Of a stretch of 64,000 nt of DNA, positions 4,420 to 52,075 are shown piece after piece. The notes beneath the pieces are model-generated. The model was not told the origin of the DNA. It saw only the letters and a list, made by a program, of their open reading frames with translations, and ran no database searches. How positions within the stretch are numbered: position 1 is the first letter of the stretch; each line of letters begins with the position of its first letter. The position numbers and the translations under genes were made by a program. Origin of the DNA: Candidatus Staskawiczbacteria bacterium RIFOXYD1_FULL_32_13 (GTDB lineage Bacteria; Patescibacteriota; Minisyncoccia; Minisyncoccales; Staskawiczbacteraceae); contig MHPU01000039.1 of the NCBI GenBank assembly GCA_001820485.1, positions 30,904 through 94,903 of the forward strand, written 5' to 3'.

Positions 4420-4502
4420 GGGCAGGTGGCTGAGCAGCAAAGGCAACAGACTGTAAATCTGTCGGGGTTTCCCCTTCATAGGTGCAAGTCCTATCCTGCC
4501 CA
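4420..4502 (+). tRNA. tRNA-Tyr (GTA), long variable arm
   Basis: The acceptor stem is GGGCAGG/CCTGCCC. The anticodon stem ACAGA/TCTGT carries the loop CTGTAAA. There is a CGGGG-TTT-CCCC variable arm and a T arm ATAGG/CCTAT. No CCA is encoded. Confidence 0.75.
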
Positions 4503-4548
4503 CACTTCGAAGAAGTGCCCTGAGCGAAGTCGAAGGGCGTTAAATTAA

Positions 4549-4624
4549 GCCGATGTAGCTCAGGTAGCAGAGCACATTCTTGGTAAGAATGAGGTCCGCA
4601 GTGCAAATCTGCGCATCGGCTCCA
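4549..4624 (+). tRNA. tRNA-Thr (GGT)
   Basis: The acceptor stem is GCCGATG/CATCGGC, the D stem GCTC/GAGC, and the anticodon loop TTGGTAA. The T arm is CGCAG/CTGCG, and CCA is encoded. Confidence 0.85.
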
Positions 4625-4712
4625 TCGGAAGAAACTATAAAGCGTTTAGCTTTTAGCGTCTAGCGTCTAGTATAACTATACCCTATACCCTAAACTCTAT
4701 ACCCTAAATACA

Positions 4713-4874
4713 GTGGCAACAAAAAAACCATTTTTAAAGATACAATGCAGTGCTTGTAAAACAGTAAATTATTTTACAAAAAAATCAAAAAAAGTAGCAG
4801 AAACAAAACTTGAAATGCAAAAATTTTGTAATTCTTGCAAAAAACACACAAAACATAAAGAAACTCGTAAATAA
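4713..4874 (+). CDS. rpmG: 50S ribosomal protein L33
   Basis: The 53-aa protein has a GTG start and reads V/MATKKPFLKIQCSACKTVNYFTKKSKK...KFCNSCKKHTKHKETRK. It has the CxxC...CxxC zinc ribbon and the KHT.HKETK ending typical of L33. It is below the 60-aa ORF-track cutoff. Confidence 0.75.
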   Translation: MATKKPFLKIQCSACKTVNYFTKKSKKVAETKLEMQKFCNSCKKHTKHKETRK

Positions 4875-4926
4875 CTATACGGACTTTCTTAAGTTTGAGG
4901 ATATGATTTATCCTAAAACTGCAACT

Positions 4927-4954
4927 GGCGGGCTATAAGCCCGTCTTTTGTTTT
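4927..4954 (+). terminator. Rho-independent terminator after rpmG
   Basis: The stem CGGGCT/AGCCCG has an ATA loop and is followed by TCTTTTGTTTT. Confidence 0.6.
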
Positions 4955-5014: not shown

Positions 5015-5188
5015 ATGTTGCCAAAAGAAGCCATTGAAGAATTTAAGAAGCTGTATTTCAAAAATTACAAAATACAGCTTTCAGATGAAGAAGCAGTTCG
5101 CCGAGCAAATAACCTTGTGGATCTTTATAGTAAAGTTTATGGCGGTGATTGTGGTTCAATAAAGGATATTGATAAAAATAAAAATTAA
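5015..5188 (+). CDS. Small hypothetical protein (57 aa), one of a three-member paralog family
   Basis: The N-terminus ML..EAIEEFKKLYFKNYK...EEAVRRANNLV resembles the ORFs at 19816..20037 and 20059..20232. It is below the ORF-track cutoff. Confidence 0.35.
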   Translation: MLPKEAIEEFKKLYFKNYKIQLSDEEAVRRANNLVDLYSKVYGGDCGSIKDIDKNKN

Positions 5189-5189
5189 A

Positions 5190-5690
5190 ATGTTAGTAGA
5201 AAAAATACAAAAACAAAATGTTGGAAACGCCGGAGAATATTATATTGCTTCAAGATTATCTGCTTTGAATTTTGTAGCAACTATAACGCTCGGTCGGGCA
5301 GAAAAATACGACATATTGGCTATTAGCCCAAAAGGTAGGGTTGTTAAATTATCTGTAAAAACTACTCAAGTTGAAAAAGCAAAGGATTTTCCATTATCGC
5401 ACAAAGACGAATGTGGACAATCAGAAGATTTTTATTATGCTTTTGTAAAATTAAATAATTTTACCAAAGATCCTGATTTCTGGGTTATTCCAAGTAAAGT
5501 TTTATGTCCTTTGCTTAAAAATTCTCACGAAAAATGGGGGAATACTCTAAATAGAAAAGGAGAAAAACACGGACATTCAGATGTTAGATTGTTGCCGATT
5601 GAATTAACTGCTGGACAACGACAATATTACCCTGAAAACTGGGAGAAAGATGTTGAAAAATACTATAAAAATTTAAACCAATTATTATGA
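5190..5690 (+). CDS. Hypothetical protein, possibly with a PD-(D/E)xK-like nuclease fold
   Basis: I place the start at MLVEKIQ. A D...(K)LSVK pattern sits after a GNAGEYY segment. The gene is translationally coupled to the downstream PLD-SNF2 gene (ATGA overlap), but its function is not supported. Confidence 0.35.
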   Translation: MLVEKIQKQNVGNAGEYYIASRLSALNFVATITLGRAEKYDILAISPKGRVVKLSVKTTQVEKAKDFPLSHKDECGQSEDFYYAFVKLNNFTKDPDFWVIPSKVLCPLLKNSHEKWGNTLNRKGEKHGHSDVRLLPIELTAGQRQYYPENWEKDVEKYYKNLNQLL

Positions 5691-8600
5691 ATAATTTTAT
5701 TACAAATGCGGAGCAAAAAAACTTAAAAACACGACTTGTTGAGTTAATTAAGAAAAGCGATGAACTCAAATTTTTGGTCGGGTTTTTTTATTTTTCCGGA
5801 ATAAGAGAGCTGTATGAAGGATTGAAAGAAAATCCTAATGTCAAAATAAAAGTTTTAGTTGGCTTAAATGTTGATAAAAATTTAATTGAGTTTGCTGAAA
5901 ATATTGAGGGGCAATCAGATGACGAAAGGGTTTATAATCTTTTTAGTTCTCTGAAAAAATCATTAAATACAAAGGATTTTGATAATCAAGAGTTTTATAA
6001 TCAAGTGAAATATTTTGTTGAATTGATAAAGGAAGAGAGATTGATAATGAGGAAAACATTTAATCCAAATCATTCCAAAGTTTATATTTTTAGATTGGAA
6101 GAGGGGCAGGTTTCAAGGCAGAAATTATTTATTACGGGAAGTAGTAATTTAACAAAAGCTGGATTAACAACACAAGAGGAATTTAATGTAGAGATAAGTG
6201 ATTATGGTTTTGACGATGCAGAAAAGTATTTTGATAATCTTTGGGCAGAGGCGATAAAGATAACAGAAAATGATGTTTTGAGAAAGAAATTAGTAGATTT
6301 GATAGAAAAGGACACGCTTGTAAAAAACATTACCCCGTTTGAAGCATTTGTTCTTGTATTAAAGAACTACCTTGATTTTTATGATAACAAAAAGGAATTA
6401 GGAAGCTCTTTAATTGAGATATTAGAAAATAATGGATATAAAGCCTATCAATATCAATTAGACGCTATAAAGCAAGGATTGGCGATAATAGAGAAGGATA
6501 ATGGGGTTATTCTTGCTGATGTTGTTGGTTTGGGCAAAACGATAATTGCCTGTGCTATTGCTAACCAACTTAAAAGGAGGGGCTTGGTTATTTGTCCTCC
6601 CGGACTGGTGGGAGATAAAAATAGAGCTTCTGGGTGGAAAAAATATCTTGATCAATTCAAGCTGTATAATTTAGATTGGGAAGTAAGGTCTCTTGGAGAA
6701 ATGGAAAACACTTTTGACTTTGTTAAAAAGAATAAAGATATTGAGGTTATTATTGTTGATGAAGCTCATCGTTTTAGAAACGAAGACACTGAAGACTATG
6801 AAATTTTAAAAAATATTTGTCGTGATAAGATTGTAATTTTACTTTCTGCTACTCCGTTTAACAATAAACCAAGTGATATACTTTCTTTGTTGAAGTTATT
6901 TGTTGCTACAAAAAAATCTTTTATAACTCTTGATAATAATCTTGCTAATAAATTTAAGATTTTCAGTGGAACATTTGATAGGCTTGCTTATATTAAAAAG
7001 AATTGGAATTCTCTTAATGAGCAAAAAAGAAAATTAGTTCAGAAATACTATAAGAGTTTTTTTGGTGAAACAGGTAGCGAGAATATTGATTTATCAAAAG
7101 TTAAACAAAAATCTCACTATTTAGCAAAACAAATAAGAGATGTTGTGGAGCCAGTTACCATAAGGCGTAATCGTCTTGATTTACAAAATAACCCATTTTA
7201 TAAAGAAGAGGTAAAAGATTTGTCAAAGATCAAGGATCCGGAGGAATGGTTTTTTGAATTGTCAAAAGAGCAGTCAGATTTTTATGATAGAATTATTAGT
7301 GTTTATTTTGGCGATGAAGAGAACGGAGGAAAATTCAAGGGTGCAATATACAGACCATTTAAATATGAAGTAAAGATTGAAAAAGAGTTAGAAGAAGAAA
7401 AAGATGATAGGGAAACAAATTTTAAAAAATGGCAACAAAAAAACCTGTATGATTTTATGCGTAGATTGTTGGTTAAAAGATTTGAAAGTTCTTTTGGCTC
7501 ATTTGAGAAAAGTATTAAAAATTTTAAGACAATAACAGAAATTGTTTTAAAGTTCATTGAGAAGACCGATAAGTATATTCTTGATAGATATTTACTTGAA
7601 AAAATATACGACCGAGATGATGATGAGATAGAGGCAGAATTGATTGAATTTGCAGAGAAATTAAAGAGAGGAAATTATCCGAAAAACAATCATATTTATG
7701 AATTGAATAAAGATTTTAATGATAAAGAGGGTTTTATTAGGGATATTAAATCAGATCTTTCTCTTTATGACGATATTTTGAAAGAACTTTCAGATTTAAA
7801 ACTCATCAAGAATGACCCAAAATCATTATGCTTGATAGAAAATTTAAAAAAGGACATAAAAAACAAACAAGAAAAGGGAGAGCCCAAAAGGAAAGTAGTT
7901 ATATTCTCAGAATATGTTGATACTATAAAGCATCTTGAACCAACGCTTAAAAAGGAATTTGGAGATAAACTTTTAGTTGTTGCCGGTGATTTATCGCCTC
8001 AAAAAATATCTCAAATCAATAAAAACTTTGATGCTTCGTTTGAAGAGCAAGATAATGATTATGATGTTTTATTGGCTTCTGACCGAATATCAGAAGGATT
8101 TAACCTTAATAGAGCAGGAATAATTGTAAATTATGATATACCCTGGAACCCAGTAAGAGTAATCCAAAGAGTGGGGCGTATAAACCGTATAAGTAAAAAA
8201 GTTTTTAATAATCTTTATATTGCAAACTTTTTTCCAACAGAAAGAGGTTCTCAGCTCGTAAGATCAAGAGAAATAGCACAAAACAAAATGTTTTTAATTC
8301 ATAGTGTTTTGGGAGAAGATGCTAAAATTTTTGATATTGACGAAGAACCAACTCCATCAGGTCTATTTACAAAAATACAGCAAAACCCAGATAATTTGGA
8401 AGAAGAAAGTTTTAATACAAGGGCGTTAAAGAAGTTTGAAGAAATTAAAAAGGAAAATTCACAACTAATTCAAGAAATTGAGAATTATCCTCCAAGAGTT
8501 AAAGTTGCTAAAGAATTTAATGAAAGCGAACTTTTTGTTTTTATTAAGAAAAGTAAACTCTATGTTAGGGGAATAAAATATAATAAAGAGAATAATGAAA

Positions 8601-9049
8601 ATGAAATTTACGATACTACCTTTGAGGATGTATTTAATAGAGTTTTATGTGAGAAAGATGAAAAGCAGTTGCAATTAAGCAATGTGTTTTGGGATAATTA
8701 CGATAAAGCCAAGAATTTTAAAGAAAAATTTGTTCCACCAAGTGTTCAAAGTTTAGAGCAAAGAGCATTGGATAATCTTAAAATAATAATTGCAAATCCA
8801 TCAGAAAAATTATTACCGCATTTAAACTTTTTAAGAACATTAAGAGAAGATATTTTGGATTATGGCACTCTTGCTGATTATACATTTAGAACAATTATTG
8901 ATTTTAAAAATGCAAATGATGAGCAGACTATTTTAGATATTATAGAATTAAAAAATAAAATGGGAGAGAATTATTTGGATAGAGAAAAAGATAATAAAAA
9001 AGATTTATCAAAAGAAATTATTGTTGCTATTGAAAATCAAAAAATATGA
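5687..9049 (+). CDS. PLD (HKD) nuclease-SNF2 family helicase fusion protein
   Basis: The N-terminus has a single HKD motif (HSKVYIF...GSSNLT). The SNF2 part has a DEAH-type motif II (VIIVDEAHRFRN), motif III (LLSATPFNN) and helicase-C motifs (DIPWNPVRVIQRVGRINR). Confidence 0.8.
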   Translation: MNNFITNAEQKNLKTRLVELIKKSDELKFLVGFFYFSGIRELYEGLKENPNVKIKVLVGLNVDKNLIEFAENIEGQSDDERVYNLFSSLKKSLNTKDFDNQEFYNQVKYFVELIKEERLIMRKTFNPNHSKVYIFRLEEGQVSRQKLFITGSSNLTKAGLTTQEEFNVEISDYGFDDAEKYFDNLWAEAIKITENDVLRKKLVDLIEKDTLVKNITPFEAFVLVLKNYLDFYDNKKELGSSLIEILENNGYKAYQYQLDAIKQGLAIIEKDNGVILADVVGLGKTIIACAIANQLKRRGLVICPPGLVGDKNRASGWKKYLDQFKLYNLDWEVRSLGEMENTFDFVKKNKDIEVIIVDEAHRFRNEDTEDYEILKNICRDKIVILLSATPFNNKPSDILSLLKLFVATKKSFITLDNNLANKFKIFSGTFDRLAYIKKNWNSLNEQKRKLVQKYYKSFFGETGSENIDLSKVKQKSHYLAKQIRDVVEPVTIRRNRLDLQNNPFYKEEVKDLSKIKDPEEWFFELSKEQSDFYDRIISVYFGDEENGGKFKGAIYRPFKYEVKIEKELEEEKDDRETNFKKWQQKNLYDFMRRLLVKRFESSFGSFEKSIKNFKTITEIVLKFIEKTDKYILDRYLLEKIYDRDDDEIEAELIEFAEKLKRGNYPKNNHIYELNKDFNDKEGFIRDIKSDLSLYDDILKELSDLKLIKNDPKSLCLIENLKKDIKNKQEKGEPKRKVVIFSEYVDTIKHLEPTLKKEFGDKLLVVAGDLSPQKISQINKNFDASFEEQDNDYDVLLASDRISEGFNLNRAGIIVNYDIPWNPVRVIQRVGRINRISKKVFNNLYIANFFPTERGSQLVRSREIAQNKMFLIHSVLGEDAKIFDIDEEPTPSGLFTKIQQNPDNLEEESFNTRALKKFEEIKKENSQLIQEIENYPPRVKVAKEFNESELFVFIKKSKLYVRGIKYNKENNENEIYDTTFEDVFNRVLCEKDEKQLQLSNVFWDNYDKAKNFKEKFVPPSVQSLEQRALDNLKIIIANPSEKLLPHLNFLRTLREDILDYGTLADYTFRTIIDFKNANDEQTILDIIELKNKMGENYLDREKDNKKDLSKEIIVAIENQKI

Positions 9050-12000
9050 GTAGAGAAATTTTAGAGGATATAATCAAAGATTTTAATCCGGAAAAATTTG
9101 TTAGATTTTTTAGAGCAAAAAACTCTTCTACTTTTTTGCCTATTAAAGAGAATTTAGATCATTATAAAGATGCCAATTTTAAGGACGGGATTAAATTAGG
9201 GGAAATAAAGTTTTCAGAAGATGATAAATTGATAATTTGTGCGTTTAAGGCAGGCAAGTCTCTTTCTGAAAGGAGTGGTAAGAAGGCTCAATATGAACTT
9301 GGCAGAAAGGTTTTAAAGGAAAATCAAATTGATGCAGGAATTTTTATATTTTATGATGAGGAAAAAAAGTTTCGTTTTTCTTTAATTTATACAAATTATT
9401 TAGAGAGTAAGAAGAAAGATTGGAGTGCTTTTCGCAGATATACATATTTTGTCGGGGAGGGAACAAATAAGACATTTTTAAAACAAATTGGGGAAAAAGA
9501 TTTCTCAACCTTGAATAATGTTAAAAATGCCTTTTCAATTTCAGCTGTAACAGATATTTTTTATAATGATTTTTTTGCGGAATACGATAAAATTTTAAAA
9601 TCTGTTGTCATCGTAAATAAAATTGATAACACAGAGAGGGCAGAAAGCTTTGTTCTTTTATTTGCTATAAGGACTATTTTTTTAGGATTTATTCAAAAGA
9701 AAAGATGGATTGGAGATAATGAAAATTTTATTCAAGATTTTTTTACAGAGTATAAGAATAAATATTTTAAAGAAGATAAATTCTATAAAAGGTGGCTTTG
9801 CCCATTGTTTTTTGAAGCATTAAATTCGCCTCCCGGAAGAAAGGTTGCATATAATAACAATGAATTCTCAAAGGAAACAGAGCAACAGTTACAAATGTCG
9901 CCATATTTGAATGGGGGTCTTTTTAAGAAGAAAAATGACTTTGATGATCAGGGCTGGATAATTCCCGACAAAGAAATAGATAGTTTTTTTAATTTCCTTT
10001 TTTCTTATAGTTTTACAATAGAAGAAAACTCTCCCGAAGACGAGGACTTACAATTAAATCCGGAGTTTTTAGGGATTATTTTTGAAAGATTAGTTAATAA
10101 AAAAGATGGAGCCGTTTATACTCCAAGAACAGAAGTTGATTTAATGTGTAGATTAAGTTTGGTTAAATGGTTGCAAAAAAATCTTAAAGTTCAAGTAAAA
10201 ATAGATGACATTTACAAATTATTATTTAAGGAAAGTGATAAAGAACAACAAACAATAGGCGATTTATCAAAAGAAGATGCTGAGTATGTTTTGAAATTAT
10301 TGGAAAATGTTATTGTATGCGACCCTGCTGTTGGTTCAGGTGCTTTTCTTGTAGGAATGATGCAGGTTTTAGATGAGGTTGGATATAATCTTAATGAGAA
10401 AATAGGGGCTAAAAATAATAATGTTTTTGATAGAAAAAAGCAAATTATTGGTAGATCTCTTTATGGCGTAGAAGTAAAGGAATGGGCTGTTTGGATATGT
10501 CAGTTGCGTTTATGGTTATCATTATTTGTTGAAGCTCCAGATGATTTTAAAAATTCAATGGAAGCAATTTTACCAAGTTTAGATTTTAAAGTAAGGAAAG
10601 GCGATAGCCTTGTTCAAAGGGTTGGTTCAAAGTTATTTCCAATTACCGGACACATACAAATACAAAATAATTCTATAAAAGCAAAGATAACTCAATTAAA
10701 AAGTTTAAAAACAGAATACTACAATAACAAAGCAACAGTTTCAGATTGGGAGTTGAGGCAAAAGGAAAAACAAATTTATGATGATATTATAAATATTGAA
10801 ATTGATGAAAAACAAAATCAATTAAATAGTTTTAAAAACTACAAATCCAAAAAAACCGCTTCAATGTTTTCAGATATGACAGAGCCAGATCAAACAGAAC
10901 TTGAATTAGATAAAGATAAAATAGAAAAAATAAAATTGGAATTAGAGGATTTAAAAGAACAAAAAGCAATTTTATCAAAAGGAGAAAAGCCTTTGGTTTG
11001 GAGTATAGAGTTTGCCGAAGTTTTTGCAGAAAAAGGCGGATTTGATATTATTATTGGAAATCCACCATATGTTAGACAAGAGAGTATTTCAGATCCAACA
11101 GAAAAGATAAAAGATAAAAAAATATACAAAAACCTTCTTTCTGAAATGGTAAAAATGGATTTTCCAGATGATTTTTTAGCAAAGACAAAGATTAACGCTC
11201 AATCCGATTTATACACTTATTTTTATATTCGTGGACTGCGACTTTTAAACCCGTTGGGAGTGCATACTTTTATTTGTTCTAATTCGTGGTTAGATGTTGG
11301 TTATGGTGCTTGGCTTCAAGAGTTTTTATTAAAAAGATGCCCGGTTGATTTAATAATTGATAATCACGCAAAAAGAAGTTTTGAAGTAGCTGATGTTAAT
11401 ACTATAATTTCTATTGTTCACGCACCGCAAAAAAAAGTTGATGAAAATCATTTGGTAAAATTTGTTGCTTACAAAAGACCATTTGAAGAGATAATGTTTA
11501 CTGAAGATTTACTTATAGTTGAGAATACAAAAAAGGTTTTGGCGAATGATGGTTTTAGAGTTTATCCAATATCAGTAAAAGATTTAATAGATTTTGGCAC
11601 AGAATATGAGAATGAAAATCAGGAAAAATTAAAATCTGGAAAATACATTGGTGATAAGTGGGGAGGTAAATATCTCCGTGCTCCGGATATTTTCTTTACA
11701 ATTTTAGAGAAAGGAAAAGATAAGTTAGTAAAACTTGGCGATATCGCAAAAGTGAGCTTTGGAATTAAAACAGGAGTAAATGAATTTTTTTATCTTGATG
11801 ATGAAGCAATCAAAAAATGGGGGATTGAAAAGGATTTTTTAAAACCTGTCATTAAAAGTCCTCGTGAATGTAGAAGCATCTTGGTTGATCCTAAAGATTT
11901 AAAATACAAAATTTTTATTTGTAATAAAAGTAAAGAAGAGTTAAATGGAACAAATGCGTTGAAGTATATTGAATGGGGAGAAAAGCAAAAAACCAAAGAG

Positions 12001-12567
12001 GGCGTTTATTGGAAAAATGTTCCAAGCGTTTCTTCGCGTAAATTTTGGTGGGAAGCATCAATCCAAGAGTTTGCTTTTTGTTCATATCCAATGATAAATA
12101 ATATTAGGCTTATTTTTTTCAAAAATAACTTTATTCTAAATGACGCTAATTTGGTTGGAATTTATCCAAAAAAAGATTTTGGAAATTCTTTACTTGTTTC
12201 CTTAAATTCAACATATAATATGATAAATATGGAACTAATGGGTATAGCAAATTTAGGAGAAGGGGCGATAAAGCAAAATCCGATTTATATCAAAAAATCA
12301 ATCATTATTGACCCTGAAATAATACCAAACTATAAAGTAGAACCGTTTTTTAATCGGGAAATTTATTCAATTTTCGAGGAGTGTGGAATTGATCCAAAAT
12401 CGGAAACCCCCATTGAAGAGCAAGAACCAAAACCGTTACCGGATAGGGCAGAGTTAGACAATATAGTTTTTGATGCTTTGGGACTTAATAATGATGAACG
12501 TAAAGAAGTTTATCGTTCCGTTTGTCGTCTTGTTTGGAATAGAATAAGTAAAGCTAAGAGTGTTTAA
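9046..12567 (+). CDS. Large N6-adenine DNA methyltransferase (gamma-class, Eco57I/MmeI-like architecture), possibly with an N-terminal nuclease domain
   Basis: It has motif I VCDPAVGSGAFLV and motif IV IIGNPPYV. At 1173 aa it is the size of a Type IIG or DISARM/BREX MTase. A D...EEK segment near the N-terminus could be a PD-ExK site. It overlaps the upstream gene by 4 nt. Confidence 0.8.
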   Translation: MSREILEDIIKDFNPEKFVRFFRAKNSSTFLPIKENLDHYKDANFKDGIKLGEIKFSEDDKLIICAFKAGKSLSERSGKKAQYELGRKVLKENQIDAGIFIFYDEEKKFRFSLIYTNYLESKKKDWSAFRRYTYFVGEGTNKTFLKQIGEKDFSTLNNVKNAFSISAVTDIFYNDFFAEYDKILKSVVIVNKIDNTERAESFVLLFAIRTIFLGFIQKKRWIGDNENFIQDFFTEYKNKYFKEDKFYKRWLCPLFFEALNSPPGRKVAYNNNEFSKETEQQLQMSPYLNGGLFKKKNDFDDQGWIIPDKEIDSFFNFLFSYSFTIEENSPEDEDLQLNPEFLGIIFERLVNKKDGAVYTPRTEVDLMCRLSLVKWLQKNLKVQVKIDDIYKLLFKESDKEQQTIGDLSKEDAEYVLKLLENVIVCDPAVGSGAFLVGMMQVLDEVGYNLNEKIGAKNNNVFDRKKQIIGRSLYGVEVKEWAVWICQLRLWLSLFVEAPDDFKNSMEAILPSLDFKVRKGDSLVQRVGSKLFPITGHIQIQNNSIKAKITQLKSLKTEYYNNKATVSDWELRQKEKQIYDDIINIEIDEKQNQLNSFKNYKSKKTASMFSDMTEPDQTELELDKDKIEKIKLELEDLKEQKAILSKGEKPLVWSIEFAEVFAEKGGFDIIIGNPPYVRQESISDPTEKIKDKKIYKNLLSEMVKMDFPDDFLAKTKINAQSDLYTYFYIRGLRLLNPLGVHTFICSNSWLDVGYGAWLQEFLLKRCPVDLIIDNHAKRSFEVADVNTIISIVHAPQKKVDENHLVKFVAYKRPFEEIMFTEDLLIVENTKKVLANDGFRVYPISVKDLIDFGTEYENENQEKLKSGKYIGDKWGGKYLRAPDIFFTILEKGKDKLVKLGDIAKVSFGIKTGVNEFFYLDDEAIKKWGIEKDFLKPVIKSPRECRSILVDPKDLKYKIFICNKSKEELNGTNALKYIEWGEKQKTKEGVYWKNVPSVSSRKFWWEASIQEFAFCSYPMINNIRLIFFKNNFILNDANLVGIYPKKDFGNSLLVSLNSTYNMINMELMGIANLGEGAIKQNPIYIKKSIIIDPEIIPNYKVEPFFNREIYSIFEECGIDPKSETPIEEQEPKPLPDRAELDNIVFDALGLNNDERKEVYRSVCRLVWNRISKAKSV

Positions 12568-12579
12568 ATTACTAAAAAT

Positions 12580-15500
12580 ATGGATGAAAAAGGATTAAAT
12601 CCAAATATAAATGAAACATTTGAAATCAAGCCACATCAGAAATGGATTTGTGATTATTTAGATCGTCTTAATGAAAAGGAAAAGATATGTTCAGATGCGG
12701 TTATTCCTTCAAATTTAATTATAGGTGCTTTAATTGCAATTCACAATAAAGAAAAAAATCCTGATTGGATGGCACAGTCCGCTCACTCGTACAGGGAGAT
12801 ATTTTATTGGTTGGGCGGTAAAAGAGATAAAGGTGTTTTTTTTAAAATTAAATCATTTTCCTATGGTTGGCTTCATAAGCTTGGAATTAGAAATAAAGCA
12901 ATTGAAAGAATTGTTAATTATAAAATAAATAGCCAAAATAAAAAGAAGATAGAATATGTTCTACAAGTTTTGCACGAACAAAAGAGAGCAGAAATTATTG
13001 CAAACACCTTATATAAAATTTATTTGGCATTTACCAAAATTTCTCATCATTTTGCGAAAAAGGATAGCAGAAAAGATACAATCAAAATTTTTAGGCAGTT
13101 AGGGATAATTGTTGATGAGAAGAATTTCCCAACCAATGATAATTTTATTGACCTTGTTCGGATATTTGAAAATGTTTTGAGAGAGTCTTCGCTTGATCCT
13201 TTAAAAATTCACGAAAATATTGATTTATTCATTAAAGAAAGAAATAAAGATGCACCTTATTTGCGTTTACTTTTTTCGTTGAATTATGATGCTAAAAGAT
13301 TTTTCTTTTATCAGGCCGATGAAAATTGGTTGAGTTGGCTTTGGAAAAATGGCTTTTTAGACAATATAAAAAAGAAGGCAGAAAACTCAAATCAATATTC
13401 GTTCCGTATGCCTGAATTAAATTATTTGGTAAAAGTTACCGAGAAGAAACCTGTAGAGGTTATTGAGATTATAAAGTCAATAGAGATTTCAGGGCAAAAT
13501 TTTAATCCGGAAGTTGTTGATCGTTTCTTGTGGATCGCAAGGTCTTTGCCTGTAGATAAGGTTGGAGAATTAGTTGAGGGTGGCAGAATTGGTAAGTGGA
13601 TTTATTTAATGCACGCATATAATTTTAGGAAATCAGGATATGAATTTATGGAAATTATCAAAAATATTGAGAAAGCCAAAGAATACAAGGCATTGTTGGG
13701 TTTAGCAAAATCACTGCTTTCAATTAAAAAAGAAATTAAAAACGACACAGAAAGTTTTGGCGAAGACAATCCTTTTTATATAGCTGATTTAGATGCCTCT
13801 GGTGTTTTTAGTGCTTTGGCAGACATAGATAATGATGAACATACAGAGAGTGCTTTAATTTTAACTGTTGAAAAACTATCAGAAATTGTAAAATTGGGAG
13901 GCGTAAATAATGAAAAAGTTTTTGATTATCAAGATTTATTTTCTTTGCTTGATGTTGATATTTTTACTCTTGAAGTTGAGGAAAGTGGTGGAATTTCTTA
14001 TAGACAGGATGTTAAAAATTTAGTTGCCACAATCAAGAAGTTAATTGAGAGAACTATTGGCAATAATTGTGGCGATGAGAAAAAAGCAAGAAAAATGTTT
14101 GAACACATAAATAACCTATCATCTTGCCGTTCATCTTGGCGAATAAAATTATTTGCTTTATCACAATGTCCGGAAGTATTCAAGAGAGAACTTAAAGAAG
14201 CATTTTTTAGAGTATTTATTGACGATTATTACCAAATTGAAGGCGGAACAGAGTATAAAAAAACACTTGGAACTGCTTTTTATGTATTAGAAAAAACAGA
14301 TAGGCAAAAATACATTGATAAAGTTTTCGAGTTTTTTTCTAAAAAAGATGCAGAAAAAGAAAATGATAAGGAAGTTTGGCACAGAAGAACGGGTTGGGAA
14401 ATCTTGTCTGTGATATATTCTATTGGTCTTTTGAATAAAGAATATGAAAATAAATGTGAGCAAGTGTTTGGCAAAAAACCTAAAAAAGATTATGAACCAG
14501 AGCCTGTAATAGGCGAAACAAGAGGAGGAACTGTGATAGACAGGTCACCATTTGAATTAGCGGGTTTCTCGCCAGATCAAATAGCGGTAAATCTTAAATC
14601 AGAGTGGACTGTTAAAAAAATTGCAGATCTTTATAAAAATGATGATTTTTTACGCCCGCGAAATGCAGAGGGATTAGGTGATGCCTTGAAAGAGGACATA
14701 AAAGTGAGAACAACAGAATATCTTGAAAATATAAATAAGTTTTTTGATAGGGAGAAAATGCACTCTCATTATGTTTATTCTATTTTGCGTGGGATTGATG
14801 ATATATTAAGAAACAAACAACAATTAAAGCCTGAGCAAATAAAACAAATTTTTGATTTTTTTAAAATAATTATAAGTAGCGGTAAAAAAGAAGCATTTAT
14901 TGCAGAGAAAAGTGAGAATGGTTGGCTTGCAGATTGGATAACTGTTTGTAGGACAATGACGGACATATTGCTATATACAACGGAAAATAAAGAAACAAGA
15001 AAAGAAATACATAGTGACCACAAAGAATTTATAAAAAACTGCATAGCTTATCTTTTAACAATTACGCAAAGCCTTTCGGCAGAAGAAGAAAAACCGGAAT
15101 ACGGAGAATTATACACAGTTGCAATAAATTCTGTAAGAGGGAGGGCATATGAATTACTCGTTGTTTTTACAGAAAACGATGGTAATGTTTTAAGTGATGA
15201 TGTAAAAAGTATTTTCAAAAAAACACTCAAAGACAATTCTCTTGCAGTAAGGTTTGTAATAGGCAGATACTTGGCAACATTATATTTTAGAGATAAGGAT
15301 TTTGTGAAAGGTTTATTTTCAGATATTTTTACTATAAAAAATTCTGATAAAAAAGATGTTTATTTAGCAACTTGGGAAGGATATTTATCAAGTTCCTTGT
15401 ATGGAGAATTATTCAATGAATTAAAGGAATATTATGTTAATGCTATAAATTTTAATCCGGAAGAATATACCAAAAGAAAATACTATAAAGGGTTAGATGA

Positions 15501-16140
15501 AGCGTTGGCAATACATTTGGCTCTTGCTTTTATCTATTTAGATTTGAAGATAGGAGATCCGCTGTTTGAAGAGTTTTGGAAAGCTGAGAATACAAAAAGA
15601 CAAGAAGAATTCATATCTTTTATAGGTCAAAAATGTTTTTCAAGGAATAATTTTGAATATGGAGAAGAGGACAAATTTGATAGGAATAAGATGATTGAGT
15701 TTTGGAATTGGGCATTGAACAAAAAATTAAATCCGAAGATTTTGTCTGGCTTTGGTTTTTGGGTAAATCCAAAAAAGGAAATTATAGATGATAATTTATT
15801 GGCAGATAAAATTGCCGAAACAATGGAGCAATCTGACGGAGATATTGATTGGGACTATGGAATAATCGAGCGTTTATTGAAGTTTGCTGAAAAAAATAAG
15901 GAAAAAACATTGCAGATTATAAAAAATTATTTTCTTGATAAAGATAATAATCTTAATCAGCATCGCCGTGTTCCTATGTTTAGCACTGATAATGAGATCA
16001 AGGAAGCGTTAAAATATATTTATAATAATTCAGACAGCGAAGTAAAAGAAAAAGTTGAGGCGTTAATAGGTTTGCTCATAGAGAAAGGCAGTGATATGTT
16101 TTGGGGATTAAAGGAAATTATAAATAAAAGTAATTTATAA
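12580..16140 (+). CDS. Large hypothetical protein (1186 aa), no recognisable catalytic motif
   Basis: The reading frame is long and clean with no Walker A. Helical repeat-like composition is an unverified impression. It is tightly linked to the MTase, 13 bp downstream. Confidence 0.5.
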   Translation: MDEKGLNPNINETFEIKPHQKWICDYLDRLNEKEKICSDAVIPSNLIIGALIAIHNKEKNPDWMAQSAHSYREIFYWLGGKRDKGVFFKIKSFSYGWLHKLGIRNKAIERIVNYKINSQNKKKIEYVLQVLHEQKRAEIIANTLYKIYLAFTKISHHFAKKDSRKDTIKIFRQLGIIVDEKNFPTNDNFIDLVRIFENVLRESSLDPLKIHENIDLFIKERNKDAPYLRLLFSLNYDAKRFFFYQADENWLSWLWKNGFLDNIKKKAENSNQYSFRMPELNYLVKVTEKKPVEVIEIIKSIEISGQNFNPEVVDRFLWIARSLPVDKVGELVEGGRIGKWIYLMHAYNFRKSGYEFMEIIKNIEKAKEYKALLGLAKSLLSIKKEIKNDTESFGEDNPFYIADLDASGVFSALADIDNDEHTESALILTVEKLSEIVKLGGVNNEKVFDYQDLFSLLDVDIFTLEVEESGGISYRQDVKNLVATIKKLIERTIGNNCGDEKKARKMFEHINNLSSCRSSWRIKLFALSQCPEVFKRELKEAFFRVFIDDYYQIEGGTEYKKTLGTAFYVLEKTDRQKYIDKVFEFFSKKDAEKENDKEVWHRRTGWEILSVIYSIGLLNKEYENKCEQVFGKKPKKDYEPEPVIGETRGGTVIDRSPFELAGFSPDQIAVNLKSEWTVKKIADLYKNDDFLRPRNAEGLGDALKEDIKVRTTEYLENINKFFDREKMHSHYVYSILRGIDDILRNKQQLKPEQIKQIFDFFKIIISSGKKEAFIAEKSENGWLADWITVCRTMTDILLYTTENKETRKEIHSDHKEFIKNCIAYLLTITQSLSAEEEKPEYGELYTVAINSVRGRAYELLVVFTENDGNVLSDDVKSIFKKTLKDNSLAVRFVIGRYLATLYFRDKDFVKGLFSDIFTIKNSDKKDVYLATWEGYLSSSLYGELFNELKEYYVNAINFNPEEYTKRKYYKGLDEALAIHLALAFIYLDLKIGDPLFEEFWKAENTKRQEEFISFIGQKCFSRNNFEYGEEDKFDRNKMIEFWNWALNKKLNPKILSGFGFWVNPKKEIIDDNLLADKIAETMEQSDGDIDWDYGIIERLLKFAEKNKEKTLQIIKNYFLDKDNNLNQHRRVPMFSTDNEIKEALKYIYNNSDSEVKEKVEALIGLLIEKGSDMFWGLKEIINKSNL

Positions 16141-16141: not shown

Positions 16142-16972
16142 ATGGATTATAAAACACCGGAAAATAAGAGCGAAAATAAATTACATAAAAAGTGGTGGTT
16201 TTGGATTGTGGTTGCAATGGTATTATTGAGTTTGATTAACAATAGATCTGAAAAGAAAGCAATAATAGAGAAAGGTAATTTAGCAAACTCGCAACAGGCA
16301 GAAGAAATAATTGATAATGATGAAGAGGAGTTAATTGATAATTCTGATAAAGAACTTTATGAGGTTGTAAAAGTTGTTGATGGCGACACCATCAATGTAA
16401 ATATAAATGGCAAAGTGGAAACATTAAGGCTAATTGGGATAAATACTCCGGAAACAGTTGATCCAAGAAAGGCAGTGATATGTTTTGGTAAAGAAGCATC
16501 TGATAAAGCAAAGCAGTTGCTAACAAATAAAAAGGTTCGTTTAGAAGGCGATGCAACGCAAGGAGAAAGAGATAAATATCAAAGACTTTTGCGTTATGTG
16601 TGGTTGGAAGACGGAACATTTTTTAATAAACTTATGATAAGTGAGGGTTATGCTTTTGAATATACCTACGATACTATTTACAAATATCAAGCAGAATTCA
16701 AACAAGCAGAAATAAGTGCAAGAACATCAAAAAAAGGATTGTGGGCTGATAATGTTTGTGACCAAACAAAAGTGCAAACTCCTGTTCAAATAATAACAAG
16801 CCAACCAGCAGATACAAGCAAAATTAACTGTTCGTCAAATACTTATAACTGCACAGATTTTAAGAGACAAAAAGAAGCTCAACAAGTATTTGATTTTTGT
16901 GGAGGAGTAAATAATGATATTCACAAACTTGATGCAGATAAAGACGGGCTTGTTTGTGAAAGTTTGCCTTGA
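16142..16972 (+). CDS. Membrane-anchored thermonuclease (SNase) homologue with a C-terminal Excalibur Ca-binding domain
   Basis: There is an N-terminal TM (WWFWIVVAMVLLSLI). The SNase core reads VVDGDTI...RLIGINTPE...RYVWLEDG. The C-terminus has DADKDGLVCE, an Excalibur DxDxDGxxCE motif. Confidence 0.75.
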   Translation: MDYKTPENKSENKLHKKWWFWIVVAMVLLSLINNRSEKKAIIEKGNLANSQQAEEIIDNDEEELIDNSDKELYEVVKVVDGDTINVNINGKVETLRLIGINTPETVDPRKAVICFGKEASDKAKQLLTNKKVRLEGDATQGERDKYQRLLRYVWLEDGTFFNKLMISEGYAFEYTYDTIYKYQAEFKQAEISARTSKKGLWADNVCDQTKVQTPVQIITSQPADTSKINCSSNTYNCTDFKRQKEAQQVFDFCGGVNNDIHKLDADKDGLVCESLP

Positions 16973-24311: not shown

Positions 24312-25934
24312 ATGGAAACAATTAGTGGAATTTATTTAAGGGTCAGCACAGAAGATCAACACCCGGAAAATCAAATAGCAGATTTAAAAAAACTTGCAGA
24401 CGCTTTGCATTGCAAAGTATTTGAAACTTATGTAGATAGGGAGTCCGGTCAATATTCGGACAGAAAAGAATTTCAAAGAATGATAAACGATGCAGAAGCG
24501 GGGAAATTCAAAATACTTTTTATATGGGCATTAGATAGATTTTCAAGAGAAGGAATAAAGGCAACATTAACTCATATTGAGAGGTTAAAGGATGTTGGTG
24601 TTGCTATTAAATCATATCAGGAGTCTTGGCTTGATACCTCAAACGAAGGGATTTGGCAACTCTTGGTGGCTGTTATGTCTTGGGCGGCGAAAGAAGAACT
24701 TAAAAGATTTAAAGAACGATCAATGGCTGGAAAGAGAACAATGTTGAACGCAGGTAGGCTTATCGGTTGCACTCCGCCATATGGTAGGAAATATATCAAA
24801 AGAGATAGAGAAAAAGGAGTTGACGGTCGTTTTGAACGAAATGAAGCAGAAATTGAAATTATCAACAAAATTTATAAATGGTATTTAGAATTAGAAAGCA
24901 TTTTTTTGGTAGCCAAAAGATTATACGATATGGGAATTAAAGCAAGGAATGGAAAGTTTTTTCACGCTTCAACGGTTAGGAAAATTTTAACAAGCGAAAG
25001 TAATATAGGTAATTTTTATTATGGGAAAAGTCGTGCTTGCGAAGCAAAATATCATATTCATAAGGTTAGGAAATATAAATTATCCGGAAGGAAAAAGAAC
25101 CCAAAATCGGAATATAAATTGATAAAAATTGAGCCAATTATTGACGAGGCTATATTTCGGGAAGTGCAAAATGTAATTAAAAAAAGAGGAAGAAAAGATA
25201 TGAGAATAAGACAATCTAAATATGAATTTTTATGTCAGGGTTTGGTAAGGTGTATTTATTGTGGGAGAATTTATGGAACTAAAATTCAAAATAAGCACTA
25301 TCAACTTTATGCTTGTCCTCAAAGGCGATTTTCTAATTTTAATGATCCGTTTTGTAAGGCAAGGTCAATATCAAGTAGGAAATTAGATGGCGAGGTTTGG
25401 AATTATGTGAAAGGTTTGATTGAAAATGAGAAACTAATAAAGGAAAAGATAAAATTTTCAAAAGACCGTCGAGAAAAAGATAAGGTAAGCAATCAAAAGA
25501 GGTGCGATATATTGATAAACGAAAAGAGTTTAATTAAAAATAAAAAAAATAAGTTATTTGAATTATATTCTGAAACACAAATATCAGAAGCGACAAAACA
25601 AGATATTAAAAATAAATTGAAAGATTTTGAGGATAGGGAAGCGAGTTTAGATAATCAAATATTGGAAAATAAAAAGAAAATGACAGATTTCTATAATATG
25701 GAAGTTTTAGAAACAGAAATTGAGAGAATATGCAATATATATCGTGGTAAACTTAATAATCCGGATTTTGAACTAAAGAGATATATTACAAGAAGGTGGG
25801 TTGAAGAAATAAATATTTTAAAGGATGGATCTGTTGTTATAAAAATGAAAGTCCCGTTTGAATTGCCTGATAACATTATAAAAGGCGAGCAGAACATTCA
25901 CTGCATAAGGAGAGCAAGAAAGGATAATTTATAA
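24312..25934 (+). CDS. Large serine recombinase (serine integrase family)
   Basis: It has the resolvase N-terminus (IYLRVSTEDQHPENQ, DRFSREG) and a recombinase domain. A zinc ribbon (CIYCGRIY...YACPQRR) and a C-terminal coiled coil follow. Confidence 0.85.
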   Translation: METISGIYLRVSTEDQHPENQIADLKKLADALHCKVFETYVDRESGQYSDRKEFQRMINDAEAGKFKILFIWALDRFSREGIKATLTHIERLKDVGVAIKSYQESWLDTSNEGIWQLLVAVMSWAAKEELKRFKERSMAGKRTMLNAGRLIGCTPPYGRKYIKRDREKGVDGRFERNEAEIEIINKIYKWYLELESIFLVAKRLYDMGIKARNGKFFHASTVRKILTSESNIGNFYYGKSRACEAKYHIHKVRKYKLSGRKKNPKSEYKLIKIEPIIDEAIFREVQNVIKKRGRKDMRIRQSKYEFLCQGLVRCIYCGRIYGTKIQNKHYQLYACPQRRFSNFNDPFCKARSISSRKLDGEVWNYVKGLIENEKLIKEKIKFSKDRREKDKVSNQKRCDILINEKSLIKNKKNKLFELYSETQISEATKQDIKNKLKDFEDREASLDNQILENKKKMTDFYNMEVLETEIERICNIYRGKLNNPDFELKRYITRRWVEEINILKDGSVVIKMKVPFELPDNIIKGEQNIHCIRRARKDNL

Positions 25935-26039
25935 TAATTATTGTGTGGTAAAACACTTCTATACATCTATGCGTAGAAGTGTTTTTGTTTTTAAGATTGA
26001 AAAATTAAAAATTTTGTGTTATATTTTAATTAAGAAACG

Positions 26040-26110
26040 GGGGACTTAGTTTAGTGGTAAAATGACTGTCTCCAAAACAGTAGATAGGGGTTCGATTCCC
26101 TTAGTCCCCG
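26040..26110 (+). tRNA. tRNA-Trp (CCA)
   Basis: The acceptor stem is GGGGACT/AGTCCCC. The anticodon stem ACTGT/ACAGT carries the loop CTCCAAA. The T loop is GGTTCGATTCC. No CCA is encoded. Confidence 0.85.
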
Positions 26111-26123
26111 CTAATTTTATAAA

Positions 26124-49049: not shown

Positions 49050-49061
49050 AAATAAAAAAAT

Positions 49062-51563: not shown

Positions 51564-51588
51564 AAAGTTAAGGGTTGGCATATTTAAC

Positions 51589-51672
51589 GTCATTGTGAGG
51601 AGGTTTACAAACCGACGAAGCAATCTCAACGACTAGATTGCCACGCTCGCTTGTGGGCTCGCTCGCAATGAC
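51589..51672. repeat. 84-bp copy of the MITE-like palindromic repeat (variant TIR GTCATTGTGAGG)
   Basis: It reads GTCATTGTGAGGAGG...GACGAAGCAATCTCAAC...CTAGATTGCCACGCTCGC...GCTCGCAATGAC and overlaps the 5' end of cutA. Confidence 0.65.
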
Positions 51673-51682
51673 AATGATAACG

Positions 51683-52067: not shown

Positions 52068-52075
52068 AATAAATT

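What the first reader, a model, noticed from the sequence alone, without database searches (positions are those of the whole stretch)
5190..16140. Restriction/DISARM-like island with an unusual PLD-SNF2 fusion, a giant gamma-class MTase and a 1186-aa unknown partner
There are four translationally coupled genes. The first is a 167-aa protein with a possible PD-(D/E)xK fold. The second is a fusion of a single-HKD PLD nuclease domain to a complete SNF2 helicase (1120 aa). The third is a 1173-aa N6-adenine MTase (FxGxG and NPPY motifs) of Type IIG/DrmMI/PglX size, with a D...EEK stretch near its N-terminus that could be a nuclease site. The fourth is a 1186-aa protein with no NTPase motif; I can only guess at its fold. 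PLD, SNF2 and a large adenine MTase are the hallmark parts of DISARM class 1. But DrmA (helicase) and DrmB (DUF1998) are missing, and PLD is fused to SNF2. That suggests either a compact DISARM variant or an uncharacterised MTase-coupled system in which the 1186-aa protein replaces DrmAB.
Basis: partly seen in the sequence, partly recalled or inferred. Interest (0 to 1): 0.7.

Follow-up and report, generated by a model that had tools for sequence, protein, structure and literature searches.

The report
Stacked restriction system and phage sensor
This tightly packed gene string in a tiny groundwater bacterium is not a compact DISARM system: it is a common two-gene restriction-modification pair followed by a separate single-protein phage sensor, and that sensor family sits behind restriction operons of many kinds unusually often.

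Summary
The four ORFs and most domain calls are real. The window matches Candidatus Staskawiczbacteria, a Patescibacteria/CPR lineage. Comparison with about 100 related loci splits the string into independent modules.

- **g2 + g3 are a conserved pair.** g2 is a PLD(HKD)-SNF2 protein and g3 is a 1173-aa Eco57I-type N6-adenine methyltransferase. All 12 loci found through g2 carry a g3-like gene next to it, and none carries g1 or g4. The fusion is common (7297 homologues), and catalytic residues are invariant in 17 diverse homologues.
- **g3 has no conserved nuclease motif.** Its N-terminal "D...EEK/ExK" residues are not conserved, and its C-terminal specificity region is mosaic. I read the pair as a two-gene, ATP-dependent restriction-modification system.
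- **g4 is neither DrmA/DrmB nor a helicase.** Its core is homologous to the Avs7/Dsr1-type sensor (hhalign probability 99.3%), recently reported to recognise phage major capsid proteins.
- **g4's first ~230 aa are a separable helical domain.** It is fused in 22 loci and a separate upstream gene in 38; CHAT proteases replace it in 4. R72, E73 and H156 are invariant, and I take it to be a nuclease effector.
- **The g4 family often follows restriction genes.** A methyltransferase-motif gene lies in the upstream same-strand gene string in 27 of 66 loci (odds ratio 11.5).
- **g1 is an unrelated PDDEXK_5 gene.**

DISARM membership fails. Interest is moderate.

The parts
5015..5188 (+). g0: 57-aa ORF of unknown function, ending 1 nt before g1. 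It is called as a gene in public records (KKP33239.1).
   Evidence: Sequence read; exact protein present in the collection; no Pfam or PADLOC hit.
5190..5690 (+). g1: 166-aa PDDEXK_5-family small protein (candidate PD-(D/E)xK endonuclease). Co-located here, but not a conserved partner of g2-g3.
   Evidence: Weak PF11645 hit. 322 homologues at 63-78% identity in Patescibacteria; many carry PF11645 and one is named 'group I intron-associated PD-(D/E)XK endonuclease'. Homologues sit in unrelated contexts, and none occurs in 12 g2-anchored loci.
5687..9049 (+). g2: 1120-aa restriction subunit. An N-terminal single-HKD PLD nuclease (aa 18-186, nt 5738-6244) is fused to an SNF2-family ATPase (aa ~250-840, nt 6440-8191) and a C-terminal region without a Pfam match.
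   Evidence: Pfam, PADLOC and NCBIfam. PDB profile search gives CHD4, Sso Rad54-like, RapA and DDM1 as best hits. H129, K131, GSSN, GLGK284, D358-E359-H361 and Q827/R828/G830/R831 are invariant in 17 diverse homologues.
9046..12567 (+). g3: 1173-aa modification and specificity subunit. It has an N-terminal non-catalytic domain (aa 1-~330), a gamma-class N6-adenine methyltransferase core of Eco57I/MmeI type (aa ~413-779, nt 10282-11382) and a C-terminal target-recognition region (aa ~800-1173, nt 11443-12564).
   Evidence: Pfam Eco57I 1.2e-29 and MmeI_Mtase 1.3e-11; PADLOC REase_MTase_IIG 3.2e-47. Motifs. N-terminal acidic/Lys motif not conserved. TaqI_C in homologues. Mosaic identity to the L091 homologue: ~80% over aa 1-700, 16-43% over aa 800-1173.
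12580..13284 (+). g4 N-terminal domain (aa 1-235): all-helical candidate effector. It is a separate gene in many relatives. R72, E73 and H156 are invariant.
13369..16137 (+). g4 core (aa ~264-1186): alpha-solenoid sensor homologous to the Avs7/Dsr1-type sensor domain. It has no NTPase.
   Evidence: PADLOC Dsr1 model 5.1e-18, hit by 11 of 21 family members, best 7.8e-26. hhalign probability 99.3%, E 2.3e-20 over 693 columns to the sensor of an AAA_16-fused haloarchaeal protein, which matches Dsr1 model positions 414-1219 at 5.5e-40. AlphaFold2 pLDDT 88.5, all-helical. Structure searches give only generic HEAT/ARM matches.
16142..16972 (+). g5: secreted staphylococcal-type nuclease with an Excalibur domain, starting 1 nt after g4. 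I treat it as a neighbour, not part of either system.
   Evidence: SNase 4.5e-26 and Excalibur 2.2e-5. Similar genes lie near g4 homologues in only 3 of 84 loci, at varying positions.

Best explanation
The region is a small defence island on a Candidatus Staskawiczbacteria (Patescibacteria) chromosome. It is made of independent modules packed head to tail.

**Module A (g2 + g3): a two-gene, ATP-dependent restriction-modification system.**
- g3 recognises a DNA target through its C-terminal recognition region and N6-methylates adenine to mark host DNA.
- g2 is the restriction subunit. It is an SNF2 motor whose single HKD domain must pair with a second copy to form one PLD active site. Cleavage of unmethylated DNA should therefore need dimerisation or convergence of two motors, as in SauUSI, MtsD of MANTIS, and Type ISP/III enzymes.

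**Module B (g4): a stand-alone immune receptor.**
- It has an Avs7/Dsr1-type alpha-solenoid sensor. By homology this probably binds a conserved phage protein such as the major capsid protein.
- The sensor is fused to an N-terminal helical effector, probably a nuclease. Activating it would abort infection if restriction fails.

**g0 and g1 (a PDDEXK_5 protein) are co-located passengers.**

**Shown:** gene and domain content, catalytic-residue conservation, g2-g3 linkage, modularity of g1 and g4, homology of g4 to the sensor, split/fused and swapped effectors, and enrichment of g4 behind restriction-modification genes.

**Inferred:** all biochemical activities, the trigger of g4, and the nuclease nature of its N-terminal domain.
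For: - **g2-g3 linkage.** All 12 g2-anchored loci have a g3-like Eco57I methyltransferase adjacent, sometimes with one gene inserted.
- **Variable third gene.** In those loci it is a SLFN_AlbA_2 protein, a protein kinase, an AAA_15/21 ATPase or small unknowns.
- **g2 is probably active.** Nuclease and ATPase catalytic residues are invariant.
- **g3 lacks its own nuclease.** There is no conserved nuclease motif, and its recognition region is mosaic.
- **Experimental precedent for PLD-helicase effectors.** The MtsD dimer forms one PLD site and resembles SauUSI (bioRxiv 10.64898/2026.09.23.753747). HKD-Swi2/Snf2 effectors pair with N6-methyltransferases in BREX-related systems (PMC12839542).
- **g4 modularity.** Only 7 of 84 g4-anchored loci (82 distinct) carry a full g2+g3 pair, and sequence identities of g2 and g4 across them do not track each other. 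The nearest g2-g3 relative lacks g4.
- **g4 sensor homology**.
- **Published function of the sensor.** It recognises phage major capsid protein and pairs with NADase, nuclease, kinase and HEPN-like effectors in proteins without a STAND NTPase (PMC12803255).
- **Effector swapping.** The N-terminal domain is fused in 22 loci and split in 38; CHAT proteases take its place in 4 loci; a TIR gene is adjacent in L001.
Against: - No activity was measured for any protein.
- The N-terminal domain of g4 has only borderline similarity to a predicted nuclease family and weak fold similarity to HEPN RNases. It lacks the Rx4-6H motif and shows no relation to an AbiU2 HEPN.
- The order g2-g3-g4 recurs in 7 distant lineages.
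- The g4 family lies in the same-strand string behind methyltransferase-containing operons in 27 of 66 loci. Some functional coupling between restriction-modification systems and g4 therefore cannot be excluded.
- The MANTIS methyltransferase needs an ATPase loader. No such loader is present here, so g3 may behave differently from MtsC.
Confidence: 0.7

Rival explanations
1. Layered, functionally coupled unit. g4 is a PrrC-like second-line effector that physically monitors the restriction-modification complex (g2/g3, or methyltransferase/specificity subunits in general). It fires when restriction is blocked or overwhelmed, so the string acts as one 'restrict, then abort' system.
For: - The g4 family has a same-strand upstream neighbour in 62 of 66 loci, mostly with overlaps or gaps of a few nt.
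- A methyltransferase-motif gene lies in that upstream gene string in 27 of 66 loci and within 6 kb in 43 of 66. The odds ratio against flanking genes is 11.5, p 5e-10.
- The upstream partners span Type I, II, IIG, ISP and others.
- The order g2-g3-g4 recurs in 7 lineages.
- RNases embedded in restriction-modification operons are a documented theme, with PrrC as the example (PMC3710099).
Against: - 39 of 66 loci have no methyltransferase-motif gene in the upstream string.
- None of 12 g2-g3 loci has g4.
- The partners are too diverse for one specific protein interface.
- Patescibacteria genomes are densely co-directional, so operon-like spacing is weak evidence.
- The homologous sensor is reported to bind capsid protein, not host restriction proteins.
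Confidence: 0.15
2. Compact DISARM variant: g2 = DrmC+DrmD, g3 = DrmMI, and g4 functionally replaces DrmA/DrmB in one obligate four-gene system.
For: - PLD, SNF2 and a large adenine methyltransferase are the accessory parts of class 1 DISARM.
- PADLOC DrmD scores 5.9e-34 and DrmMI 5.7e-25.
Against: - No DrmA or DUF1998 was found in g1-g5 or in the other large window ORFs that were scanned.
- DrmD equivalog score is 145.5 bits against a 610 cut-off.
- g3 scores better as Type IIG (3.2e-47).
- g4 has no NTPase and belongs to a different, known sensor family.
- g4 is absent from all g2-anchored loci.
Confidence: 0.04
3. g3 is a self-sufficient Type IIG restriction-modification enzyme, and g2 is an independent Type IV-like or other defence helicase-nuclease that happens to be adjacent.
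For: - The best PADLOC models for g3 are REase_MTase_IIG.
- PLD-helicase enzymes such as SauUSI act autonomously.
Against: - g2 and g3 homologues are adjacent in 12 of 12 g2-anchored loci and in 7 g4-anchored loci, across phyla.
- The N-terminal region of g3 has no conserved acidic/Lys catalytic motif.
- g2 has no recognisable target-recognition or modified-base reader domain by Pfam.
Confidence: 0.08

Closest known systems
MANTIS / Type-2 BREX-related (Gao_RL) system: MtsA (DUF499 ATPase), MtsB, MtsC (methyltransferase), MtsD (PLD-SF2 helicase nuclease)
   Same: - An N-terminal single-HKD PLD nuclease fused to an SF2/Swi2-Snf2 motor, paired with an N6-adenine methyltransferase that sets specificity.
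- An expected dimeric PLD active site and ATP-dependent restriction of unmethylated DNA.
   Different: - No DUF499 AAA+ ATPase and no DUF3780/MtsB gene here.
- The methyltransferase is an Eco57I/MmeI-type enzyme with its own TaqI_C-like recognition region in homologues.
- The unit is two genes.
Class 1 DISARM (DrmA, DrmB, DrmC, DrmD, DrmMI)
   Same: The PLD nuclease, SNF2 helicase and large gamma-class adenine methyltransferase domains are the same kinds of parts.
   Different: - The defining DrmA helicase and DrmB (DUF1998) are absent.
- PLD is fused to SNF2.
- g2 fails the DrmD equivalog cut-off.
Type ISP restriction-modification enzymes (LlaGI/LlaBIII) and Type IIG enzymes (MmeI, Eco57I, BpuSI)
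   Same: - Nuclease + SF2 motor + gamma-class methyltransferase + recognition domain is the Type ISP parts list (own knowledge).
- The g3 methyltransferase core and recognition region are of Type IIG kind.
   Different: - Here the parts are split over two polypeptides.
- The nuclease is HKD/PLD rather than PD-(D/E)xK.
- g3 lacks the conserved N-terminal nuclease motif of Type IIG enzymes.
Avs7 / Dsr1 sensor-domain proteins (PMC12803255)
   Same: - The g4 core is homologous to this sensor.
- The architecture is an N-terminal effector followed by the sensor.
- Effectors are swappable, and non-STAND members with nuclease or HEPN-like effectors are described.
   Different: - g4 has neither SIR2 (so it is not Dsr1) nor a STAND NTPase (so it is not Avs7).
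- Its effector is a distinct helical domain, often encoded as a separate upstream gene.
- The family is concentrated in Patescibacteria and frequently follows restriction-modification operons.
- Its trigger is untested.
PrrC / RloC and other HEPN RNases embedded in restriction-modification operons (PMC3710099)
   Same: A candidate nuclease effector is encoded inside or at the end of restriction-modification operons, consistent with multi-layer defence.
   Different: - No ABC ATPase and no Rx4-6H motif.
- No evidence of physical control by the restriction-modification proteins.

Membership tests
DISARM (class 1) | DrmA: YprA-like helicase | tested here: not met
   g4 has no helicase or NTPase hit. 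The DrmA model hits to g2 cover only the generic helicase region. No DrmA hit among 9 further large ORFs of the window.
DISARM (class 1) | DrmB: DUF1998 protein | tested here: not met
   No DUF1998 or DrmB hit in g1-g5 or in the other ORFs scanned.
DISARM (class 1) | DrmC: PLD nuclease | tested here: met
   Present as the N-terminal domain of g2 (PLDc_2 1.5e-9). H129, K131 and GSSN are invariant.
DISARM (class 1) | DrmD SNF2 helicase (equivalog) | tested here: not met
   NCBIfam DISARM_DrmD scores 145.5 bits against a 610 cut-off. The PADLOC DrmD hit (5.9e-34) is partial.
DISARM (class 1) | DrmMI adenine methyltransferase | tested here: inconclusive
   DrmMI model scores 5.7e-25, but Type IIG models score better at 3.2e-47.
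Type-2 BREX-related / MANTIS | HKD nuclease fused N-terminally to a Swi2/Snf2 helicase | tested here: met
   definition in PMC12839542.
Type-2 BREX-related / MANTIS | DUF499 AAA+ ATPase (MtsA) | tested here: not met
   No DUF499 or AAA+ hit in g0-g5. g4 has no Walker A.
Type-2 BREX-related / MANTIS | DUF3780 protein (MtsB) | tested here: not met
   g0 and g1 give no such Pfam hit.
Type IIG restriction-modification enzyme | Gamma-class N6-adenine methyltransferase plus C-terminal recognition domain in one chain | tested here: met
   Motif I precedes NPPY. Eco57I and MmeI_Mtase hits. Mosaic C-terminus and TaqI_C in homologues.
Type IIG restriction-modification enzyme | N-terminal PD-(D/E)xK nuclease with conserved catalytic residues | tested here: not met
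   The candidate D42...E53-x-K55 and DEEK residues vary among 13 homologues. No nuclease Pfam hit. The fold of the N-terminal domain was not modelled.
Type ISP restriction-modification enzyme | Single polypeptide: nuclease, SF2 motor, methyltransferase, recognition domain | tested here: not met
   The functions are split between g2 and g3. The nuclease is PLD.
Avs7/Dsr1 sensor-domain superfamily | Sensor domain homologous to the Dsr1/Avs7 C-terminal region | tested here: met
   PADLOC Dsr1 model is hit by 11 of 21 family members. hhalign gives 99.3% over 693 columns to an AAA_16-fused protein carrying that sensor.
Dsr1 proper | N-terminal SIR2 NADase | tested here: not met
   No SIR2 hit. The Dsr1 model aligns only from position 746.
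Avs7 proper | STAND NTPase between effector and sensor | tested here: not met
   No P-loop motif or Pfam NTPase hit.
Avs7/Dsr1 sensor-domain superfamily | Activation by phage major capsid protein | not testable with these tools
   Reported for SeAvs7 and EcDsr1 only.
HEPN RNase (for the g4 N-terminal domain) | Helical bundle with an Rx4-6H motif | tested here: inconclusive

The most novel reading that the evidence does not exclude
The g4-type proteins may be a general 'restriction-operon rider'. In this reading they are capsid-sensor-like receptors, with a split or fused nuclease or a CHAT protease. They would be co-transcribed with restriction-modification systems of any type and be functionally coupled to them, for example as a guard that fires when restriction is evaded or inhibited. 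The window's string would then be one layered restrict-then-abort unit, and the family would be a dominant abortive-infection strategy in the small genomes of Patescibacteria.
Probability: 0.15. Interest if true: 0.65.

Novelty: new variant of a known kind. Interest (0 to 1): 0.35.

Why it matters
- **It corrects a tempting misreading.** PLD + SNF2 + a large methyltransferase does not mean DISARM. In dense Patescibacteria genomes, translational coupling is not evidence that genes form one system.
- **It defines a minimal restriction-modification architecture.** The two-gene HKD-SNF2 plus Eco57I-type methyltransferase pair is very common. It shares its effector design with MANTIS and SauUSI but lacks the loader ATPase, so it may be a simple model for how a PLD motor nuclease is directed by a methyltransferase.
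- **It extends a newly described sensor family.** The Avs7/Dsr1 sensor family reaches into candidate-phyla bacteria, with a new effector that can be fused or split.
- **It raises a testable question.** The sensor is statistically linked to restriction operons of many types. If that linkage is functional, it would say something about how layered immunity is organised in organisms with very small genomes.

Tried and rejected
- **g4 as fused DrmA-DrmB or any helicase:** rejected. There is no NTPase motif or hit.
- **DrmA/DrmB elsewhere in the window:** none found among 9 other large ORFs.
- **g3 N-terminal nuclease (D..ExK, DEEK):** rejected on conservation.
- **g1 as a system component:** rejected. 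Its homologues are highly conserved in Patescibacteria but sit in unrelated contexts.
- **g3 against PDB sequences:** only spurious hits.
- **g4 in phage genomes:** no match.
- **Metagenome scan with g2:** returned only 4 loci.
- **Supplementary tables of the Avs7/Dsr1 preprint:** not held.
- **Inverted repeats that could signal phase-variable recognition-domain shuffling:** none convincing.
- **Promoter and terminator scans:** not above shuffled expectation, apart from a terminator-like hairpin at 4927-4945 upstream of g0.

Full report
**Observation**

The window has about 30% G+C and nearly all genes on the + strand. Exact protein matches place it in Candidatus Staskawiczbacteria, Parcubacteria/Patescibacteria, from groundwater metagenome-assembled genomes.

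The reported ORFs exist:

| Gene | Coordinates | Length | Spacing |
|---|---|---|---|
| g1 | 5190-5690 (an upstream TTG at 5169 is also open) | 166 aa | overlaps g2 by 4 nt |
| g2 | 5687-9049 | 1120 aa | overlaps g3 by 4 nt |
| g3 | 9046-12567 | 1173 aa | 12 nt before g4 |
| g4 | 12580-16140 | 1186 aa | |

The tight string is longer than reported. A 57-aa ORF (g0, 5015-5188) ends 1 nt before g1. It follows an rpmG-like ORF and a terminator-like hairpin at 4927-4945. A secreted SNase/Excalibur gene (g5, 16142-16972) starts 1 nt after g4.

Tight packing is the norm in this genome. 56 of 64 genes are on the + strand, 26 of 47 co-directional neighbours are 15 nt apart or less, and coding density is about 0.92. 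Coupling alone therefore says little about function.

**Domain content**

- **g2.** It carries PLDc_2/RE_NgoFVII (aa 18-186), SNF2-rel_dom and Helicase_C. A profile of 17 diverse homologues hits bona fide SNF2 remodellers best: CHD4, Sso Rad54-like, RapA and DDM1. H129 and K131 of the single HKD motif, GSSN, the Walker A lysine, DEAH and motif VI are invariant.
- **g3.** It is an Eco57I/MmeI-type methyltransferase with motif I before NPPY, which is gamma-class order.
- **g4.** It has no Pfam domain and no P-loop.
- **g1.** It is a PDDEXK_5-family protein.

**The g2-g3 pair**

The PLD-SNF2 fusion is not unusual. There are 7297 homologues, and more than 120 clusters at 64-68% identity share the same architecture across Patescibacteria, Omnitrophota, Planctomycetes and others.

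I examined twelve loci found through g2:
- from long contigs;
- from plasmids of cultured Allomeiothermus and Parabacteroides;
- from a metagenome scan.

All twelve carry a g3-like Eco57I methyltransferase next to g2. It lies downstream in 11, sometimes with one gene inserted. None carries a g1 or g4 homologue.

The gene after the pair varies. Examples are a SLFN_AlbA_2/HATPase protein, a protein kinase, an AAA_15/21 ATPase and small unknown genes. The closest relative (L091, g2 88% identical) has g2-g3 followed by unrelated small genes.

Against the L091 homologue, g3 is about 80% identical over aa 1-700 but only 16-43% identical over aa 800-1173. Against L053, the same C-terminal stretch is conserved above average. 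This mosaic is the signature of a swappable target-recognition region. TaqI_C is detected there in homologues.

I conclude that g2+g3 form a self-contained, two-gene, ATP-dependent restriction-modification unit. g3 provides specificity and protective m6A. g2 provides translocation and cleavage.

Because g2 has one HKD half-site, cleavage should need two copies. This is seen in the MtsD dimer of MANTIS, which resembles SauUSI (bioRxiv 10.64898/2026.09.23.753747). The activities themselves are inferred, not shown.

**g4**

The g4 family has 163 close homologues, all annotated as hypothetical and mostly from Patescibacteria. It has 3044 representatives at E <= 1e-3 in the 1.84-billion-protein library.

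Among 84 g4-anchored loci (82 distinct), only 7 have a g2+g3 pair upstream (L006, L015, L050, L053, L054, L079, L081). Identities of g2 (30-61%) and g4 (31-55%) to the window copies do not track each other.

Elsewhere the g4 homologue ends a Type I operon (HsdM-Ymh-HsdS-HsdR-YgjP-g4) or faces a TIR gene.

The same-strand genes upstream of g4 homologues are dominated by restriction-modification families. These include N6_N4_Mtase, N6_Mtase, ResIII, Eco57I, HsdR-type SWI2_SNF2, DpnII, EcoRI and C5 methylases, Type_ISP_C, GmrSD and HNH.

By a motif proxy ([DNS]PP[YFW] or the C5 PCQ motif):
- 27 of 66 loci have a methyltransferase in the upstream same-strand gene string;
- 43 of 66 have one within 6 kb;
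- the odds ratio against flanking genes of the same loci is 11.5 (p 5e-10).

g4 is itself composite. Its first ~230 aa correspond to a separate ~185-aa gene immediately upstream of shorter (~980 aa) cores; the HMM hit has E 1.6e-20. Of 75 loci:
- 22 are fused;
- 38 are split;
- in 11 another gene takes the upstream position: a CHAT protease in 4, and unknown ~186-240-aa proteins in 7;
- in 4 no upstream gene was called.

The AlphaFold2 model of g4 is confident (pLDDT 88.5) and entirely helical. PDB searches return only generic HEAT/ARM solenoids.

Sequence profiles are more informative:
- The PADLOC Dsr1 model matches g4 aa 675-1159 (5.1e-18) and 11 of 21 family members.
- The g4 profile aligns over 693 columns (probability 99.3%, E 2.3e-20) with the sensor region of a haloarchaeal AAA_16-fused protein.
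- That protein matches Dsr1 model positions 414-1219 at 5.5e-40.

A 2026 preprint reports that Avs7 and Dsr1 share this repeat sensor and that it recognises phage major capsid protein. It also reports that proteins without a STAND NTPase carry the sensor with NADase, nuclease, kinase or HEPN-like effectors (PMC12803255). g4 fits that architecture.

Its N-terminal domain (model pLDDT 89.4) has these conserved residues:
- R72, E73 and H156 are invariant across both fused and split forms.
- S44, N60, D62, W63, Q66, S70 and H157 are invariant in fused forms.

**g1**

It has 322 homologues at 63-78% identity in Patescibacteria. They sit in unrelated neighbourhoods, next to a recombinase, RNase H, a C5 methylase with BglII, or a transposase. 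They are never next to g2 in the g2-anchored loci. I treat g1 and g0 as passengers.

**Comparison with known systems**

- **DISARM:** fails on DrmA and DrmB and on the DrmD equivalog score.
- **Type-2 BREX-related/MANTIS:** shares the HKD-Snf2 effector and a methyltransferase but lacks DUF499 and DUF3780.
- **Type IIG:** g3 lacks a conserved nuclease motif.
- **Type ISP:** the parts are split across two genes and the nuclease is PLD.
- **Dsr1/Avs7:** g4 belongs to the sensor superfamily but is neither Dsr1 (no SIR2) nor Avs7 (no STAND NTPase).

**Verdict**

The DISARM framing and the idea that g4 replaces DrmAB are not supported.

What remains of interest:
- a very common but, as far as the papers I could search show, uncharacterised two-gene HKD-SNF2/methyltransferase restriction unit;
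- a Patescibacteria-centred branch of the Avs7/Dsr1 sensor family, with a fused-or-split helical effector, that is strongly enriched at the 3' end of restriction operons of many types.

Whether that enrichment reflects functional coupling (a PrrC-like guard; PMC3710099) or only defence-island packing in dense genomes is open. I give coupling about 15%.

Noticed in passing
window 16082-16104 and 16466-16488: An exact 23-nt direct repeat (AGAAAGGCAGTGATATGTTTTGG) lies at the 3' end of g4 and inside the SNase gene g5. It is read in different frames in the two genes, and in g4 it encodes the conserved family motif EKGSxFW. My own estimate of the chance expectation is about 1e-6 for this region. 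It could be a recombination scar or island junction.
   Followed up: no
window 5015-5188: A 57-aa ORF (g0) ends 1 nt before g1. It has no family hit and is called as hypothetical in public records.
   Followed up: partly
window 4420-4945: tRNA-Tyr and tRNA-Thr are followed by an rpmG (ribosomal protein L33)-like small ORF at about 4714-4875 and a terminator-like hairpin at 4927-4945. Together these mark the upstream edge of the island. The L33 identification is from reading the translation, not from a search.
   Followed up: no
window 24312-26111: A large serine recombinase (Resolvase + Recombinase + Zn_ribbon_recom) lies directly upstream of tRNA-Trp. The ~20 kb between the tRNA-Tyr/Thr pair and this point may be an integrated element.
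   Followed up: no
window 47316-63964: There are five ORFs of 577-587 aa (starts at 47316, 52331, 55185, 58421 and 60533); whether they are paralogues was not tested, and they have no PADLOC hit where tested. There are also two HerA/VirB4-like ATPases (49062-51563, 62447-63964), possibly a secretion, pilus or conjugation locus.
   Followed up: no
L012, L028, L047, L059 (gene immediately upstream of the g4-type core): CHAT (caspase-like) protease genes occupy the position normally held by the g4 N-terminal-domain gene. This suggests effector exchange on the same sensor.
   Followed up: partly
L053 9361-10008: A HEPN_AbiU2 gene (30.1 bits, above the cut-off) is inserted between the g3 homologue and a full-length g4 homologue.
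   Followed up: partly
L001 8956-9651 and L002 59-754: A TIR_2 gene lies next to the g4 homologue on the opposite strand in a 4.3-Mb genome; in L001 an HD-domain gene directly follows it.
   Followed up: no
L072 6041-9250: A 1069-aa FRG + multi-TPR protein lies upstream of the g4 module in a Caldilineaceae genome. It clustered with the N-terminal-domain family in single-linkage clustering, so it may carry a related segment.
   Followed up: no
window 11443-12564 versus L091 and L053: The C-terminal ~370 aa of g3 are 16-43% identical to the otherwise ~80% identical L091 homologue, but 65-83% identical over aa 700-1000 to the more distant L053 homologue. This indicates exchange of the recognition domain between lineages.
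   Followed up: partly
L086 15803-20444: Downstream of a g2-g3 pair lies a protein kinase, then a C5 methylase, a MORC-like HATPase_c_3 protein and a Vsr endonuclease. This is another stacked defence island.
   Followed up: no
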